Source: Patescibacteria group bacterium
Lineage (GTDB): Bacteria > Patescibacteriota > Microgenomatia > UBA8517
Reading direction: 5' to 3'
NCBI GenBank assembly: GCA_036835125.1
Contig: DAITMO010000001.1
Span: 609,399-673,398 of the forward strand
Length of the DNA: 64,000 bases
Part shown: piece by piece, positions 28,222 to 32,740 of the stretch
Position numbering within the stretch: position 1 is the first letter of the stretch
How the letters are laid out: every line of letters begins with the position of its first letter
The notes under the pieces: model-generated
Told to the model about the DNA's origin: nothing
The model's database searches: none
The model's input: only the letters and a program-made list of their open reading frames with translations
Translations under genes and position numbers: made by a program

Positions 28222-28249
28222 TATCTTACAAATGTAGAATTATATATAT
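28222..28249 (+). promoter_or_regulatory. sigma70-like promoter TTGACT-16-TAGAAT driving the metK leader
   Basis: Hexamers read from sequence; the predicted TSS falls at the start of the riboswitch P1 strand. Confidence 0.45.
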
Positions 28250-28337
28250 ATCAAGAGAGCGGTGAGGGAATTAGCCCGTTGATCCGCCGGCAACCTTATC
28301 ATTATAGGAAGAAGGTGCCAAAGCTATTAACGATATG
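28248..28337 (+). promoter_or_regulatory. SAM-I (S-box) riboswitch in the metK 5' leader, apparently translational
   Basis: AUCAAGAGAGCGGUGAGGGAAUUAGCCCGUUGAUCCGCCGGCAACC...AAGGUGCCAAAGC matches the conserved SAM-I cores (AUCAAGAGAGG.GGAGGGA, GCCCG...CCGGCAACC, GGUGCCAA). The 3' P1 strand GAUAUG includes the metK AUG. No terminator hairpin. The P4 region is very short. Confidence 0.7.
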
Positions 28338-29393
28338 GGAAATATATTTACCAATTACTTCAAGACTTATACCGTTGAATCTGTAACAGAGGGTCATCCT
28401 GACAAAATATGTGACCAGGTTTCGGATGCCATATTAGACGAATGTCTCCTTCAGGATCCCCAAAGCAGGGTGGCTATTGAGTCTTTTGGAAGTCATGGGC
28501 TTTTTGTAATCGGGGGAGAACTAACAACACACGCAAAATTTGACACCAAACAAATTGCTGCTGGGGTTTATAAAAATATTGGTTATAAGGATAAATTAAG
28601 AATAATTACAAATATTATTAAACAATCTCCAGACATTGCTATGGGAGTAGACACTGGAGGTGCGGGTGATCAAGGAATAATGTACGGGTTTGCTACGAAC
28701 GAAACTCCAGAATATTTACCTAAAGGGGTCGCACTTGTTCATAAATTAACCCGCGGTCTTGCGAGTCTTAGACGTAACAAAAGTATTTCTTGGCTTCTAC
28801 CTGATGGAAAGGCACAAGTAACCATGCAAGGCAAAAATATTAAAACAATTTTGGTTTCAACTCAGCACAAAAAAAATATTTCCCAAAATGAAATTACCAG
28901 AGAAATTACCAACAAATTGATAAAAAGGCTAGTTGGGAACATATCTGAAATTGAAATTCTAATTAACCCCACTGGACGTTTTGAAACGGGAGGTTTTTTT
29001 GGAGATACAGGTCTAACAGGTAGAAAAATTATGGTTGATACATATGGAGGTCTTATTCCTCATGGTGGAGGATGTTTTTCGGGTAAAGACCCTACAAAAG
29101 TAGACAGAAGTGGGGCCTATATGTGTCGATTTGCCGCTAAAAACTTGGTAGCAAGGGGGTATGGAAAAAGTATTTTAGTGTCCGTTGCTTATGCAATTGG
29201 CAAAGCCGAACCATTAATGCTCACAGCAATTAATGAAAAGGGTCAAAATTTAAATTCAATTCTCAAAAAAGATTTTGATTTCAGGCCAAAGGCAATCATT
29301 GAAGAGCTCGACCTTTTAAAACCTATTTTCCAAAAATCAGCTTCATACGGTCATTTTGGAAATCCTGCTTTTCCCTGGGAAAAAATAGTTTAA
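28335..29393 (+). CDS. metK: S-adenosylmethionine synthetase
   Basis: ESVTEGHPDKICDQVSDAILD, GGAGDQGIMYGFATNETPEYLP, GGGCFSGKDPTKVDRSGAYMCR. Confidence 0.9.
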   Translation: MGNIFTNYFKTYTVESVTEGHPDKICDQVSDAILDECLLQDPQSRVAIESFGSHGLFVIGGELTTHAKFDTKQIAAGVYKNIGYKDKLRIITNIIKQSPDIAMGVDTGGAGDQGIMYGFATNETPEYLPKGVALVHKLTRGLASLRRNKSISWLLPDGKAQVTMQGKNIKTILVSTQHKKNISQNEITREITNKLIKRLVGNISEIEILINPTGRFETGGFFGDTGLTGRKIMVDTYGGLIPHGGGCFSGKDPTKVDRSGAYMCRFAAKNLVARGYGKSILVSVAYAIGKAEPLMLTAINEKGQNLNSILKKDFDFRPKAIIEELDLLKPIFQKSASYGHFGNPAFPWEKIV

Positions 29394-29396
29394 ACA

Positions 29397-30353
29397 CTAA
29401 GTTTTTCCTCCTTTTCCATGAAATGCTGAGTGGATATCGCGAAGTTGTTTATTTGTTACATGTGTATAAATTTGTGTTGTAGAAATATTTTTATGTCCAA
29501 GCATTTCCTGAACACTTCTAATGTCAGCCCCTGCCATAAGTAAGTCTGTTGCAAAACTATGGCGCATTACGTGGGGAGTCACTTCGACCGGTAGTTTCAT
29601 TTTATGGGAATACTTTTTTACCATTCTTTGAACAGATCTGACAGTTAGCCTCATTTTTTCATCAGGAGTGCCTGGAGCTGAGATTCCTTTATGGTGTATA
29701 AAAAGAGGTTTGTAATTATCGTCTCTCTCATTTAGGTACTTAATTAACCAGTCTGTGGCTCTCTGAGACATAAAGACAACGCGGGCCTTTCCACCTTTTC
29801 CAATGATTCCAAACTCACGCCTATCTAAATCCACTTTGTCACAATCAAGCTTCACAAGTTCGCTTACACGAAGTCCTGTTGAAAAAAGCATCTCAAGGAT
29901 TGCCTTGTCCCGTTTTCCTTGAATTGTTGAAAGACTGGGTGCATTTAAAAGCCTGTCTACTTGTTCGCCACTTAAGAATTTAACCTGTCTCTCTTCAACT
30001 TTCGGAATTTCAATTTTGTCAGGTGCCATAACTTGGTAATCGTTTCTGGTTAACCATTTTAAGAAACTCCTTAGGGCAATTACATGATATCCCTGAGTTC
30101 TTCTGGTCATCTGAGGCTTATTTTCACCAGGAAGATTGGAAAGATACACCCTAAAGCTTCTTACAACATCAGGATTAATATCTTTCAGTTCCTGCCTTAT
30201 ACCTTCATTACTCATCCAATTGGTAAAACGCGTTAAGTAGTGTTTGTAGTCCCGTATCGTTAGGGGAGAGGAGCCTTTCTCTATTTGGAGATATTCCAAA
30301 AACTGATCAACCTTCTTTGCTATTTCAGAAGTGTTCTTTGCAGACTCTGGCAT
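29397..30353 (-). CDS. tyrosine site-specific recombinase, XerC/XerD family
   Basis: C-terminal catalytic region HVMRHSFATDLLMAGADIRSVQEMLGHKNISTTQIYTHV (R..H..R/H..Y) and an N-terminal SAM-like domain. Confidence 0.8.
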   Translation of the reverse strand: MPESAKNTSEIAKKVDQFLEYLQIEKGSSPLTIRDYKHYLTRFTNWMSNEGIRQELKDINPDVVRSFRVYLSNLPGENKPQMTRRTQGYHVIALRSFLKWLTRNDYQVMAPDKIEIPKVEERQVKFLSGEQVDRLLNAPSLSTIQGKRDKAILEMLFSTGLRVSELVKLDCDKVDLDRREFGIIGKGGKARVVFMSQRATDWLIKYLNERDDNYKPLFIHHKGISAPGTPDEKMRLTVRSVQRMVKKYSHKMKLPVEVTPHVMRHSFATDLLMAGADIRSVQEMLGHKNISTTQIYTHVTNKQLRDIHSAFHGKGGKT

Positions 30354-30398
30354 TAATTTATATTAAACCAATAAAAATGGGGTGTCAATAATGTGCGA

Positions 30399-31157
30399 CT
30401 AAGGGTGTAGTGTACCTTTGATAGCCCTATCAAATAAATCCATTAAAGGATACATTCCTTGCTCCATACTTGGATAACGATCAATAACAATAAGCTGATC
30501 ATGACAAAAGTCAGGTTGCATTTTTCCAAATGGAACATTGACAACAAGTAGGTTTTTTATACCAGAATTCAAAGCTGTCCTTGTAAAAGTAATTGAATCA
30601 TCAACAAATACTACCCAAGGTGCCATTTTTGAAAGTCTTTCTAATTCACCAGCTTTGTAAATAGCTGTGTCTTCGTGACTAATTATTCCACCATCTTTTC
30701 TCATCAAAATATTTTCAAACAGAATAAGAGGAAGTTCACGCTTGAAGCTTTCTTCTGTAGCTTTTCGTAAATCCGGATTTCTAGCCGTTAAAACATAATT
30801 ATTTTTCTGCCCATAAAGAGAAATGGTTTTATTGACAAGTGGCTTTATATAAAGATATCTATGGGCACGTTTAATTAAATCTGCGCTGTACCATCCGTCT
30901 TCTGCATGTTCTATATCGTCATTGCTTAGATTGTTTTCTTTTGCAACTTTAGTTAAATAATTCCAACTATCATAATCATCTAAGTTTACTTTGATTCCGT
31001 GTTTAATATAAAAATCGTCAGAAACATCTTTTGCTAAATTTATCAAAGTTAAATCAGCATCATAAACAATAATTGTATTAGGGTTTCCAACAATTTCTTT
31101 AAATAGTTGTAAATTACCATTAAACAAATTTTCTAAATGATATGGCTTTCTTTCCAT
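30399..31157 (-). CDS. HAD-superfamily hydrolase (possible 5'-nucleotidase-like)
   Basis: Motif I IIVYDADLTL (DxDxT) and VVFVDDS (motif IV-like). Confidence 0.45.
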   Translation of the reverse strand: MERKPYHLENLFNGNLQLFKEIVGNPNTIIVYDADLTLINLAKDVSDDFYIKHGIKVNLDDYDSWNYLTKVAKENNLSNDDIEHAEDGWYSADLIKRAHRYLYIKPLVNKTISLYGQKNNYVLTARNPDLRKATEESFKRELPLILFENILMRKDGGIISHEDTAIYKAGELERLSKMAPWVVFVDDSITFTRTALNSGIKNLLVVNVPFGKMQPDFCHDQLIVIDRYPSMEQGMYPLMDLFDRAIKGTLHP

Positions 31158-31203
31158 AGAAGCCTTTTTAACACACTTTCTAGTCTTTTTCCATGCCTAA
31201 TTT

Positions 31204-31212
31204 GAGGCTAAA
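31204..31212 (+). repeat. TGAGGCTAA motif copy (in ATTTGAGGCTAAAACCTC)
   Basis: Same 12-mer ATTTGAGGCTAA as at 24201. Same 14-mer TGAGGCTAAAACCT as at 63536. Confidence 0.4.
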
Positions 31213-31740
31213 ACCTCACCAAATCGATTTTAACGCGTTATTGGCAAAAAGATGAATAATGCATCATCTAATCTTCCCATGTTTACGGGAAAAACAATAC
31301 AAATTATCAAAATTCTGTATTTCTATAAACATTTGCCAAAAAACAGGGGAGGGGGACAAAACGCCAAAAATTCATTCGGCTAAGTTTCGGAGGGATAGGT
31401 TTTAGAGAAAACAAAAAATAGAGGATTTTAAATAAAAAAAATAAATAATTTATGAACATCTATTAACAGAAACATTTTGAAAGGTAAAAATACTACACTA
31501 CCCTCGACAGCTTTAGATTACGTCGCAAAAGTTATATTGTGCGACTATATACAATTTACCTCCCTAAGGGTATATATATCATTATTTCTCACATAACCCT
31601 TCTAAGAGGACTGTATGAAGCCTTTATAAATAACACTAAAAATACATCTACTGTTCTCTAATAGGAAGATATAAAACAATAACCTTATTAATTACTTATC
31701 CACAATAATAAACACATTACCAATGGGAAATACACTACTC

Positions 31741-31749
31741 TGAGGCTAA
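31741..31749 (+). repeat. TGAGGCTAA motif copy
   Basis: Exact 9-mer inside the ORF-free region. Confidence 0.35.
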
Positions 31750-31969
31750 TAACTATATCAAACTATACAAATTACCCATGAATCTACACTTCGGTTTTTT
31801 TTCGAATGATTGTCAACGTCGTATTTCGTGAAAATACCTATAATATTTCGTGAAAACATAATGTCCTATAACTATAAACATATGAAATTATAGGATATGT
31901 CACTCCTCTCCTCCCCTCTTTGTGTGTCTCTATTTTTTTAGATGAAGATTATGTTTATTTTATATTTAT

Positions 31970-32740
31970 TTAGCCACCCCAATGCGTAGAAATAAACATT
32001 GCAGCAAATATAAGAATACCCACTACTAGGTGTTCCCTAATAGTTGAAGAAAAAAGCCTACCTTCGAGCTTTGCCTGGCCCAAACCTAACAGCATATAAA
32101 ACGAGGCTGTTAGAAATAGTGATCCAACAACGATTGTGACAGGCCAAAAATAAATTGCTGCCGAAAGTTCTGCAGTTAAAAGAGAAAAAATAGTTGAAAA
32201 AAATATTAACTTTTTAGTGTTATCTGAATCTAGAACCATTGACCAAAGCCCTTGTAAATAAAGAGGGAAAGATAAAATAAAAACTAAAGGAACAACATAA
32301 TAAACCTCTGTTCTAACAGACAAAACTGCATCGAAAACAAGGAAAGAAGTCAAAAGTGTGAGTACAAAACCTACTCCCCTAGCTGCACGTAATAATGCAA
32401 TCGTACGTACTGCTGCCACTGAATAAATGTTTGCTGTCAAGCAAAGAACATATATTCCCAATGCATAAAATATCACAACTGGTATTCTCGCAAAAATATT
32501 TGCAGGAAGTAAAAACCAGAAAAACCCTACTCCAAGTGTAAACATTACAGGAAGAATAAGGGTCATAAGGGTCATATTCTTTCCTAAATTCTCAAAGAGT
32601 GACCAAAAAAACAAACCAGCCGTCAGTAATCCCAAAACCCCTATTGCCCAAAATCTATTCTGATCATTTAGAAACTGAATTCCAATAAAACCGAGTGAAA
32701 GAATAAGCGAGGTTATTACAAAACGAGTACGTTTGGACAT
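31970..32740 (-). CDS. polytopic membrane protein, unknown function
   Basis: 256 aa with at least seven hydrophobic helices. Confidence 0.5.
   Translation of the reverse strand: MSKRTRFVITSLILSLGFIGIQFLNDQNRFWAIGVLGLLTAGLFFWSLFENLGKNMTLMTLILPVMFTLGVGFFWFLLPANIFARIPVVIFYALGIYVLCLTANIYSVAAVRTIALLRAARGVGFVLTLLTSFLVFDAVLSVRTEVYYVVPLVFILSFPLYLQGLWSMVLDSDNTKKLIFFSTIFSLLTAELSAAIYFWPVTIVVGSLFLTASFYMLLGLGQAKLEGRLFSSTIREHLVVGILIFAAMFISTHWGG

What the first reader, a model, noticed from the sequence alone, without database searches (positions are those of the whole stretch)
31158..31969. 812-nt ORF-free AT-rich island next to an Xer-family recombinase: candidate ncRNA, regulatory or origin/dif-like region
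In an otherwise tightly packed genome this region has no ORF above 60 aa on either strand. It contains a perfect DnaA box TTATCCACA (31696-31704), a stem-loop GTCGCA-N12-TGCGAC (31521-31544) and a palindromic hairpin CCTATAA-N16-TTATAGG. It also has a tandem ATTTCGTGAAAA repeat, two TGAGGCTAA copies, and purine/pyrimidine tracts GGGGAGGGGGA (31343) and CCTCTCCTCCCCTC (31905) that could pair over about 560 nt. It lies 0.8 kb from a tyrosine recombinase gene. I could not recognise tmRNA, RNase P, SRP or 6S signatures by eye. Only one DnaA box is present and dnaA is not nearby, so calling it oriC would be speculative.
Basis: seen in the sequence. Interest (0 to 1): 0.5.

Follow-up and report, generated by a model that had tools for sequence, protein, structure and literature searches.

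The report
Conserved Xer recombination-site island in Woesebacteria
The gene-free island is a deeply conserved non-coding locus of Woesebacteria/Microgenomates whose "stem-loop" is most likely the 28-bp dif-type target site of the neighbouring Xer recombinase, while the roughly 550 conserved bases around it remain unexplained.

Summary
The island is not decayed spacer. The same 780-1014-nt gap follows the DUF5656 gene in 20 related loci, with long invariant blocks and a 597-632-nt core.

The noted stem-loop has dif architecture: an 11-bp arm, a 6-bp centre and an 11-bp arm (31520-31547). It co-varies with the recombinase. Loci carrying a different Xer-like gene (31% identity) carry a different 11+6+11 palindrome. 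Two near-identical genomes (L021, L022) differ only in the site-bearing segment and the recombinase gene. Each recombinase gene also has a half-site of its own palindrome in its promoter region.

Genes converge, and local cumulative GC skew peaks, about 2 kb away. This fits a terminus, not an origin.

No Rfam family matches. Covariation tests gave no significant support for a structured RNA.

Still unexplained:
- the 5' module, which contains an invariant DnaA box, two GTTTTCACGAA boxes and two TGATA repeats;
- a spacer of about 151 nt between the DnaA box and the site that varies in sequence but not in length;
- a LAGLIDADG ORF that replaces this spacer in one lineage.

The parts
31158..31969 (-). 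The whole conserved non-coding island between the DUF5656 gene (31970-32740, minus) and the NT5C-like HAD nucleotidase gene (30399-31157, minus). Orientation is that of the flanking genes.
   Evidence: No ORF above 50 aa. The same gap of 780-1014 nt follows DUF5656 in the Woesebacteria loci L016, L018, L020-L023, L058, L059, L063 and L066-L068 (L060: 1166 nt including the ORF), and the same motif order recurs in the more distant loci L028, L029, L036, L041, L043 and L049.
31520..31547 (.). 28-bp dif-type candidate recombination site. Plus strand: ACGTCGCAAAA | GTTATA | TTGTGCGACTA. Minus strand: TAGTCGCACAA | TATAAC | TTTTGCGACGT. Two 11-bp arms (31520-31530 and 31537-31547) flank a 6-bp centre (31531-31536).
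   Evidence: Dyad matches are 8/11. The same site is present in 15 loci, including distant ones. It is replaced by ACCGAGTATAA|TAACCC|TTACACTCGGT (dyad 9-10/11) exactly where the downstream recombinase is of another type. The architecture matches the published definition of dif (PMC2958812, PMC5357621).
30390..30399 (-). Half-site GTCGCACATT, identical to the left arm of the 28-bp site. It overlaps the NT5C stop codon and sits 1 nt upstream of the -35 hexamer of the xer promoter-like site.
   Evidence: GTCGCACAWT occurs exactly only twice in the 64 kb, here and in the full site. An equivalent half-site followed by TTGACA lies upstream of main-type xer in the Woesebacteria main-type loci and L029; in L028, L036 and L041 the half-site (GTCGTACAAT) lies just before the xer start codon. 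The TTGACA arrangement also lies upstream of the main-family paralogue in the alternative loci L022 and L059.
30360..30388 (-). Promoter-like site TTGACA-17-TAATAT in front of xer (start codon at 30353).
   Evidence: The consensus scan scores it 10 of 12.
29397..30353 (-). Xer-family tyrosine recombinase gene (318 aa), proposed to act on the 28-bp site.
   Evidence: Pfam Phage_integrase plus SAM-like N-terminal domain. NCBIfam scores are XerC 257.6, XerD 257.1 and XerA_Arch 236 (cut-off 220). It is 77-86% identical across Woesebacteria, compared with 43-48% for the NT5C neighbour.
31696..31704 (+). Perfect DnaA-box 9-mer TTATCCACA (minus strand TGTGGATAA), invariant or near-invariant in all 20 loci. 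Its role is unknown.
   Evidence: It is the only exact copy in the window, and no second box lies in the island.
31822..31857 (-). Two GTTTTCACGAA boxes 22 bp apart with a conserved TTATAGG between them. The boxes are kept in every locus, whichever recombinase type is present. Role unknown.
31751..31770 (-). Two TGATAYA-type direct repeats with a 10-nt period (minus strand TTGTATAGTT TGATATAGTT).
31548..31695 (-). Spacer between the DnaA box and the site. Its sequence is not conserved (28-44% identity) but its length is: 147-157 nt in 13 of 17 loci, measured from the DnaA-box end to just inside the site.
   Evidence: In L060/L061 the spacer is replaced by a 165-aa LAGLIDADG_1 ORF.
31910..31916 (-). 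GGGGAGG on the minus strand, at the 5' edge of the conserved core. It is complementary to CCTCCCC, which lies about 565 nt downstream.
   Evidence: All six counted pairs are kept in 13 sequences. The only variants are G.U, and there is no compensatory change.
31346..31352 (-). CCTCCCC on the minus strand, at the 3' edge of the conserved core.
31246..31289 (-). Two hairpins in the tail: CCCGT-AAAC-ATGGG (31276-31289), and GATGA-N8-TCATC followed by TTTTT (31246-31268). The second looks like an intrinsic terminator for minus-strand transcripts.
   Evidence: In the named structure 81.8% of cells pair, against 22-58% in slid controls, but this is not above partner shuffles.

Best explanation
The island carries the DNA target site of the neighbouring Xer-family tyrosine recombinase. 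The site is a 28-bp dif-type sequence at 31520-31547, with two 11-bp arms in imperfect inverted repeat around a 6-bp centre.

Inferred mechanism, by analogy with XerCD/dif, XerA/dif, XerS/difSL and XerH/difH:
- Two recombinase monomers bind the two arms on each sister chromosome.
- They synapse and exchange strands across the 6-bp centre, converting chromosome dimers to monomers near the replication terminus.
- A copy of one arm sits beside the -35 hexamer of the xer promoter, so the recombinase probably also represses its own gene.

What is shown: the site architecture, its deep conservation, its replacement together with the recombinase type, and the promoter half-sites.

What is inferred: binding, cleavage, dimer resolution, autoregulation and terminus location.

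The remaining roughly 550 conserved bases are part of the same conserved unit, but their function is not established. They comprise the 5' module with the DnaA box and two pairs of direct repeats, the fixed-length spacer, and the 3' blocks. My preferred guess is accessory or regulatory DNA that is also transcribed through to a terminator-like hairpin.
For: 1. Architecture. The site is 11+6+11 with 8/11 dyad matches. It is the same in 15 loci, down to Microgenomates whose Xer is only 54-60% identical. This matches the dif definition used in PMC2958812 and PMC5357621.

2. Similarity to E. coli dif. By my own gapless count, 15-16 of 28 positions match E. coli dif (sequence quoted in PMC3025954). 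Archaeal dif shares 14/28 with the bacterial consensus (PMC2958812).

3. Co-variation with the recombinase.
- L022, L059, L067, L068 and L043 carry a different palindrome, AC(C/T)GAGTATAA-N6-TTACACTC(G/A)GT, with 9-10/11 dyad matches.
- These are exactly the loci whose first downstream recombinase is only 31% identical to the window's Xer.

4. Mosaic pair L021 and L022.
- They are 93-95% identical at the nucleotide level through yebC, DUF5656, the first 285 nt of the island, and the NT5C gene.
- They have no blastn similarity in the 428-nt site-bearing segment or in the recombinase region.

5. Promoter half-sites.
- GTCGCACAWT followed by TTGACA lies upstream of main-type xer in the Woesebacteria main-type loci and L029; in the distant loci L028, L036 and L041 the half-site lies just before the xer start codon.
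- AAACTGAGTATAAT|ATG lies directly upstream of the alternative recombinase.
- GTCGCACAWT occurs only at these two places in the 64 kb.

6. The recombinase is Xer-like by NCBIfam and passes the XerA cut-off.

7. Position. Genes converge at 29.4 kb and local cumulative GC skew peaks at 29-30 kb, about 2 kb from the site.
Against: - No experiment supports binding or cleavage.
- Terminus location rests on a 64-kb window that also has a second strand and skew switch at 13.9 kb. The skew could simply follow the coding strand.
- Copy number per genome is unknown.
- The alternative-type loci may represent only two or three independent lineages.
- Inner-arm palindromy at dif positions 7-12 and 17-22 is 4 pairs, at rather than above the threshold used by Kono et al. 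(PMC3025954).
- A dif site needs only about 30 bp, so this explanation leaves more than 90% of the conserved island unexplained.
- In alternative-type loci the main-family paralogue persists with its promoter half-site but without a full main-type site in the island.
Confidence: 0.68

Rival explanations
1. The island encodes a large structured non-coding RNA of about 600-690 nt on the minus strand. It would be transcribed from an A/T-rich -10-like element just upstream of the conserved GACAC, closed by GGGGAGG/CCUCCCC pairing, and ended at the hairpin plus U-run at 31246-31268. The palindrome could then be an RNA hairpin, or a DNA site that lies inside the RNA gene. This rival is not mutually exclusive with the dif reading.
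For: - Core length is nearly constant at 597-632 nt in 13 Woesebacteria loci.
- There are many invariant blocks next to weakly conserved proteins.
- The variable spacer keeps its length.
- A gapless alifold of four spacers with 28-44% identity scores better than circularly shifted controls (5/300 shifts as good).
- MFE z-scores for the island are -2.0 (minus strand) and -2.9 (plus strand).
- All single changes in the GGGGAG/CUCCCC pairing, and several in the hairpins, are G.U-compatible on this strand.
- A terminator-like hairpin lies downstream, and there is usually none between DUF5656 and the island.
- A LAGLIDADG_1 ORF sits inside the island in L060/L061, and such genes usually live in introns of RNA or protein genes.
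Against: - No Rfam family matches, even at E<=10, and ARAGORN finds no tmRNA or tRNA.
- The RNAalifold covariation term is only -0.67 kcal/mol.
- Pair counts on the two best hairpins are not above partner shuffles: 81.8% paired against 83.4% shuffled.
- The in-register signal in the spacer is about as strong on the opposite strand (11/300).
- The one striking 'compensatory' stem swap is explained by recombinase co-variation and promoter half-sites.
- Direct repeats at 10- and 22-bp periods, and a perfect DnaA box, look like protein-binding DNA.
Confidence: 0.25
2. The conserved flanks are accessory sequences of the recombination site, as in the plasmid sites cer and psi. Proteins bound to the 5' module (GTTTTCACGAA boxes, TGATA repeats, DnaA box) would wrap DNA at a fixed distance from the core. 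This would impose resolution selectivity without FtsK.
For: - A conserved module of repeated boxes is separated from the core by a spacer that is conserved in length but not in sequence.
- The 5' module is retained whichever recombinase or site type is present.
- cer and psi have about 180 bp of accessory DNA on one side of a 28-30-bp core (PMC5357621).
- Archaeal dif sites are also surrounded by conserved flanking sequence (PMC2958812).
Against: - The accessory region would be about 435 bp, more than twice that of cer or psi.
- Spacer outliers of +32, +35, +45 and about +390 bp are not whole helical turns.
- No accessory protein is identified.
- Nothing here tests topology.
Confidence: 0.2
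3. The island is the chromosomal replication origin (oriC): a DnaA box, an AT-rich unwinding stretch and iteron-like repeats.
For: - A perfect DnaA box is invariant in 20 loci.
- There is a conserved T/A-rich stretch.
- Two families of direct repeats are present.
Against: - There is only one box in the island. Matches with at most 1 mismatch across the window equal chance (22 found, 21.7 expected).
- No dnaA or dnaN is among the ORFs tested near the 13.9-kb strand switch.
- More than 30 kb of genes to the right, and about 15 kb to the left, point towards the island rather than away from it. Local cumulative GC skew has a maximum, not a minimum.
Confidence: 0.04

Closest known systems
XerS/difSL (streptococci, lactococci) and XerH/difH (Helicobacter, Campylobacter) single-recombinase modules
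   Same: - The Xer-type recombinase gene is genetically linked to its own site as one module (PMC5357621).
- The arms are close to a true inverted repeat, as expected when one protein binds both arms.
   Different: - The recombinase here is 318 aa and scores far below the XerS model cut-off (151.7 against 267).
- The centre is 6 bp, not the 11 bp of difSL.
- The site lies 0.2-1.2 kb from the gene, with 0-2 genes in between, and sits inside a roughly 600-bp conserved island.
- The promoter half-sites are, to my knowledge, not a described feature of those systems.
XerA/dif of archaea
   Same: - The window's recombinase passes the NCBIfam XerA_Arch cut-off (236 against 220).
- The site is 11+6+11 with nearly symmetric arms and conserved flanking sequence. 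It shares about half its positions with bacterial dif (PMC2958812).
   Different: - This is a bacterial (CPR) host.
- In Thermococcales dif is not next to xerA (PMC2958812), whereas here it is linked.
- The related recombinases in L022 (recB), L029 and L041 fall just below the XerA cut-off (214-217).
XerCD/dif of E. coli and CodV-RipX/dif of B. subtilis
   Same: - 28 bp, with 11-bp arms and a 6-bp centre, in non-coding DNA near a skew and gene-orientation switch.
- The inner arms and centre resemble CGCATAA TGTATA TTATG.
   Different: - Only one recombinase gene is seen beside the site in main-type loci.
- The outer arms are symmetric.
- HMM scores are below the XerC and XerD equivalog cut-offs.
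cer and psi plasmid resolution sites with accessory sequences
   Same: A core Xer site sits in a much longer conserved non-coding unit.
   Different: - This one is chromosomal.
- The flank is longer and lies on both sides of the core.
- There are no recognisable ArgR, PepA or ArcA sites, and nothing about topology was tested.
OLE RNA with its membrane-protein partner OapA (recalled from memory, used only as a lead)
   Same: A non-coding unit of about 600 nt lies next to a very highly conserved small membrane-protein gene. DUF5656 is 70-99% identical in more than 120 clusters.
   Different: - There is no match to the Rfam OLE model or to any other family.
- There is no significant covariation.
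- DUF5656 has no hit among solved structures.

Membership tests
dif (Xer chromosome-dimer resolution site) | Two arms of about 11 bp in imperfect inverted repeat, separated by a 6-8-bp central region | tested here: met
   The site is 11+6+11. Dyad matches are 8/11 in most main-type sites (range 6-9/11) and 9-10/11 in the alternative type. The definition is taken from PMC2958812 and PMC5357621.
dif (Xer chromosome-dimer resolution site) | Lies in non-coding DNA and is conserved among related genomes | tested here: met
   The same site is in the same intergenic island in 15 loci, and the alternative version is in 5.
dif (Xer chromosome-dimer resolution site) | A cognate Xer-family tyrosine recombinase is encoded in the genome | tested here: met
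   Site type tracks recombinase type.
dif (Xer chromosome-dimer resolution site) | Located at the replication terminus, at the GC-skew shift point | tested here: inconclusive
   A local cumulative-skew maximum and gene convergence lie at 29-30 kb, about 2 kb from the site. However, only 64 kb is visible, there is a second switch at 13.9 kb, and the skew may follow the coding strand.
dif (Xer chromosome-dimer resolution site) | One functional copy per chromosome | not testable with these tools
   The full site is unique in the 64-kb window. The whole genome was not available.
dif (Xer chromosome-dimer resolution site) | Palindromy at positions 7-12 and 17-22, with more than four complementary pairs (criterion of Kono et al., PMC3025954) | tested here: inconclusive
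   Four of six pairs by my count on the main site, so at the threshold rather than above it. Symmetry is stronger in the outer arms.
dif (Xer chromosome-dimer resolution site) | The recombinase binds the arms and cleaves at the borders of the centre | not testable with these tools
   Needs EMSA, suicide-substrate or plasmid-resolution assays.
XerS/difSL module | XerS-type recombinase (about 356 aa) and a 31-bp site with an 11-bp centre | tested here: not met
   The XerS model scores 151.7 against a cut-off of 267. The protein is 318 aa and the centre is 6 bp. The GTTTTCACGAA double box resembles difSL arms superficially, but it does not change with recombinase type.
oriC | A cluster of DnaA boxes with an AT-rich unwinding element | tested here: not met
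   There is one perfect box and no other box with at most 1 mismatch in the island. The window-wide count equals chance.
oriC | Cumulative GC-skew minimum, with genes diverging from the site | tested here: not met
   There is a local maximum and the genes converge.
Any Rfam family (tmRNA, RNase P, 6S, SRP, OLE, GOLLD, ROOL, HEARO, group I/II introns and others) | A match to the family covariance model | tested here: not met
   Nothing reaches gathering score in the window. Nothing credible appears at E<=10 in the island, or at E<=1 in L021, L029, L036 and L060. ARAGORN finds nothing.
Structured non-coding RNA (generic) | Base pairs supported by compensatory changes beyond controls | tested here: inconclusive
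   The RNAalifold covariation term is -0.67. The two tail hairpins are not above partner shuffles. The in-register spacer signal is present on both strands. Only 13-20 sequences were available.

The most novel reading that the evidence does not exclude
The island is more than a dif site. On this reading it is a roughly 600-nt functional unit common to Microgenomates and always placed after the highly conserved membrane-protein gene DUF5656. It would be either a new large structured RNA that contains or overlaps the Xer site, or a new accessory nucleoprotein scaffold (DnaA box plus two repeat families at a fixed distance from the core) that controls chromosome-dimer resolution. In addition, interchangeable recombinase/site pairs may capture gene cassettes between the full site and the promoter half-site.
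Probability: 0.3. Interest if true: 0.78.

Novelty: new variant of a known kind. Interest (0 to 1): 0.56.

Why it matters
Chromosome-dimer resolution has not, as far as the searched literature shows, been described for the Candidate Phyla Radiation. Here a candidate site, its recombinase and a likely autoregulatory half-site can all be read directly from sequence.

Two alternative recombinase/site pairs occupy the same locus. This gives a natural specificity-swap experiment.

The surrounding roughly 550 conserved bases are an unusually large and constrained non-coding unit for 0.8-1-Mb genomes. They include an invariant DnaA box and a spacer that varies in sequence but not in length. If they prove to be an accessory scaffold or an RNA, that would add a new way of organising Xer recombination. 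If not, the site is still a useful terminus marker for checking CPR genome assemblies.

Tried and rejected
1. Known RNA families. Rfam at gathering and at permissive thresholds on the window and four relatives gave nothing. ARAGORN gave nothing.

2. tmRNA-like tag. UAUAGUC|GCA followed by a short frame ending in a conserved UAA looked like a resume codon. I rejected this because L058 has an in-frame stop after two codons, L059 lacks the stop, there is no T-arm, and there is no G3.U70 pair.

3. tRNA gene split by a group I intron, as in the Patescibacteria preprint 10.1101/2025.07.03.662931. There is a 7-bp terminal helix and a D-arm-like hairpin. However, there is no T-arm, no group I hit, and in L060 there is no room for a ribozyme core beside the ORF.

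4. The variable spacer as a decayed homing-endonuclease gene. tblastn of the L060 LAGLIDADG protein against all islands found nothing.

5. The GTTTTCACGAA double box as a difSL-like site. The arms are direct repeats, and the box is unchanged when the recombinase type changes.

6. RNA hairpin covariation. By eye the palindrome and the two tail hairpins looked compensatory. The formal count is not above shuffles, and the palindrome swap tracks the recombinase instead.

7. My error. The single metagenome scan used 13 N instead of the true 12 N between the boxes. By luck it still returned six distant members that do have 13-nt spacing.

8. The viral-contig scan for the palindrome gave 0 hits.

9. 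The search of solved structures with DUF5656 gave 0 hits.

10. Literature search for DUF5656 found 0 papers.

Full report
**The observation.** Positions 31158-31969 lie between two minus-strand genes. One is a DUF5656 membrane-protein gene (31970-32740). The other is a 252-aa HAD-type protein whose relative P0009 hits Pfam NT5C weakly (30399-31157). A Xer-type tyrosine recombinase gene follows at 29397-30353. The longest ORF inside the gap is 50 aa. Two coordinates are slightly off: the stem-loop is at 31522-31545, and GGGGAGGGGGA is at 31346-31356. GC is 0.30-0.31 against 0.35-0.39 nearby.

**It is not spacer.** Exact-protein look-ups showed that the organism was assembled repeatedly from one sample series. 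Relatives were reached in three ways: through homologues of the NT5C-like protein, through a genome-collection scan that names the group as Candidatus Woesebacteria, and through homologues of DUF5656.

- All of them keep a gap of 780-1014 nt after DUF5656 (1166 nt in L060, where an ORF has been inserted).
- Alignments show long invariant blocks, although the flanking NT5C-like protein is only 43-48% identical.
- From 22 nt before GGGGAGG to 12 nt after CTCCCC the core measures 597-632 nt in 13 loci.
- My one metagenome scan was mis-specified, with 13 instead of 12 N between the two boxes. It still returned six more distant Microgenomates loci with the same order of motifs after a DUF5656 gene.

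**Known RNAs are excluded.** Rfam 15 finds only a tRNA and a SAM riboswitch in the window. It finds nothing credible in the island or in four relatives at permissive thresholds. ARAGORN finds nothing. I considered and rejected a tmRNA-like tag, an intron-split tRNA and a decayed homing-endonuclease gene.

**The turning point.** At first the stem-loop looked like a textbook compensatory RNA hairpin. GTCGCA...TGCGAC is replaced by CCGAGT...ACTCGG in L022, L059, L067 and L068, and some loci show apparent wobble intermediates. Read as DNA, it has exactly the architecture of a dif site.

- The main site is TAGTCGCACAA | T(A/G)TAAC | TTTTGCGACGT, that is 11+6+11, with 8/11 dyad matches.
- The alternative version is ACCGAGTATAA | TAACCC | TTACACTCGGT, again 11+6+11, with 9-10/11 dyad matches.
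- This is the definition of dif used in the literature (PMC2958812, PMC5357621).
- By my gapless count, 15-16 of 28 positions match E. coli dif as quoted in PMC3025954. Archaeal dif shares 14 of 28 positions with the bacterial consensus (PMC2958812).

**Three independent lines tie the palindrome to the recombinase.**

1. Loci with the main site have, as their first downstream recombinase, a protein 54-100% identical to the window's Xer. Loci with the alternative site (L022, L059, L067, L068 and the distant L043) have a Xer-like protein only 31% identical.
2. L021 and L022 are 93-95% identical at the nucleotide level across yebC, DUF5656, the first 285 nt of the island, and the NT5C gene. They have no detectable similarity in the 428-nt site-bearing part of the island or in the recombinase region. 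The site and the enzyme were therefore replaced together around a conserved gene.
3. Each recombinase gene carries a half-site of its own palindrome in its promoter region.
   - GTCGCACAWT lies immediately before a TTGACA -35 hexamer upstream of main-type xer in the Woesebacteria main-type loci and L029, and upstream of the main-family paralogue in alternative loci. In the distant loci L028, L036 and L041 the half-site lies just before the xer start codon.
   - In the window this half-site is at 30390-30399, next to TTGACA-17-TAATAT at 30388-30360.
   - AAACTGAGTATAAT lies directly before the start codon of the alternative recombinase.
   - GTCGCACAWT occurs exactly only at these two places in the 64 kb.

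The recombinase scores as Xer by NCBIfam: XerC 257.6, XerD 257.1, and XerA_Arch 236 against a cut-off of 220.

**Position.** Genes from 13.9 to 29.4 kb are mostly on the plus strand, and genes from 29.4 to 64 kb are almost all on the minus strand. Local cumulative GC skew peaks at 29-30 kb. This is the pattern of a terminus and the opposite of an origin. The caveats are that the window also has a switch at 13.9 kb and that the skew may simply follow the coding strand. No dnaA or dnaN is among the ORFs tested near the 13.9-kb switch. DnaA-box-like 9-mers are no more frequent in the window than chance.

**Is there also an RNA?** Arguments for:

- The core length is constant.
- The DnaA-box-to-site spacer is 147-157 nt in 13 of 17 loci although it cannot be aligned by sequence.
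- A 6-bp GGGGAG/CUCCCC terminal pairing shows only G.U variants.
- A terminator-like hairpin with a U-run lies at 31246-31268.
- A 165-aa LAGLIDADG_1 ORF replaces the spacer in L060/L061.

Arguments against:

- The RNAalifold covariation term is -0.67 kcal/mol.
- A formal count on the two best hairpins is not above partner shuffles: 81.8% of cells pair, against 83.4% when shuffled.
- The in-register signal in the spacer is about equal on both strands (5/300 and 11/300 circular shifts as good).
- Direct repeats at 10- and 22-bp periods, plus a perfect DnaA box, look like protein-binding DNA.

I therefore rate a structured RNA at about 0.25. It is compatible with the dif reading rather than an alternative to it.

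**What remains unexplained.**

- The 5' module: GGGGAGG, CCTATAAT, two GTTTTCACGAA boxes, two TGATAYA repeats and the invariant TTATCCACA. It is kept whichever recombinase is present.
- The fixed-length spacer.
- The 3' blocks TCCGAA...CCGAA...CTCCCC.

A cer/psi-like accessory region is an attractive analogy (PMC5357621), but it is untested.

**Verdict.** The finding is real and the island is functional. This is a new variant of a known kind: a Xer/site module in CPR bacteria, embedded in an unusually large conserved non-coding unit.

Noticed in passing
L021 against L022 (L021 2466-2893 and 3744-4600): Two otherwise 93-95% identical genomes differ by coupled replacement of two segments. One is the site-bearing 428 nt of the island. 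The other is the recombinase region: one xer gene in L021, against recombinase A, a 147-aa ORF and recombinase B in L022. The NT5C gene between the two segments stays 94.7% identical.
   Followed up: yes
L018 5645, 6772 and 7778; also window 30390-30399: The gene content between the full site and xer varies by lineage: the NT5C-like gene alone; NT5C plus a 314-aa gene in L018; a C39-peptidase-like gene in L036 and L041; nothing in L028 and L029. In L018 the extra 314-aa gene is flanked by direct copies of GTCGCACAATC. This looks like Xer-mediated cassette insertion, as in dif modules or IMEX elements.
   Followed up: partly
L060/L061 4074-4571; L060/L061 xer; L016 gyrA: Homing-endonuclease genes are active in these genomes. 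A LAGLIDADG_1 ORF sits inside the island, an intein with LAGLIDADG_3 sits inside the Xer recombinase gene, and an intein sits in gyrA of the 89%-identity relative.
   Followed up: partly
window 31970-32740 (minus strand): The DUF5656 membrane protein is exceptionally conserved: 70-99% identity and exactly 255-257 aa in more than 120 clusters, with 1,501 homologues. It has no annotated function, no solved relative and no paper in the library.
   Followed up: partly
window 28245-28339 (plus strand): A SAM riboswitch (Rfam RF00162, 57.4 bits) lies directly upstream of metK (28335-29393). The same arrangement is seen in L021.
   Followed up: no
L026, L031/L032/L054/L056, L035, L038/L047, L052, L055: The mis-spaced metagenome pattern also hit unrelated contigs that carry tandem arrays of 23-24-bp repeats, each containing GTTTTCACGAA. 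Some also have DnaA-box-like TTGTCCAC or TTATCCACA nearby. These are iteron-like arrays of unknown origin, and the hits may partly be a product of the search design.
   Followed up: no
L008, L009, L013, L014, L015 (same organism as the window): Several low-coverage assemblies of this organism break inside the island.
   Followed up: no
window 30353-30388 (minus strand): The xer start codon lies only about 6 nt after the -10-like TAATAT, and no Shine-Dalgarno sequence is visible. The mRNA may therefore be leaderless or nearly so.
   Followed up: no
window 31850-31905 and relatives (minus strand, just after CCTATAAT): CCTATAAT is invariant and lies exactly 17 nt after GGGGAG in Woesebacteria loci, so it could be a -10 element. 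In distant loci the GGGGAG-to-CATAAT distance is 41-44 nt, so a fixed -35/-10 pairing does not hold.
   Followed up: partly
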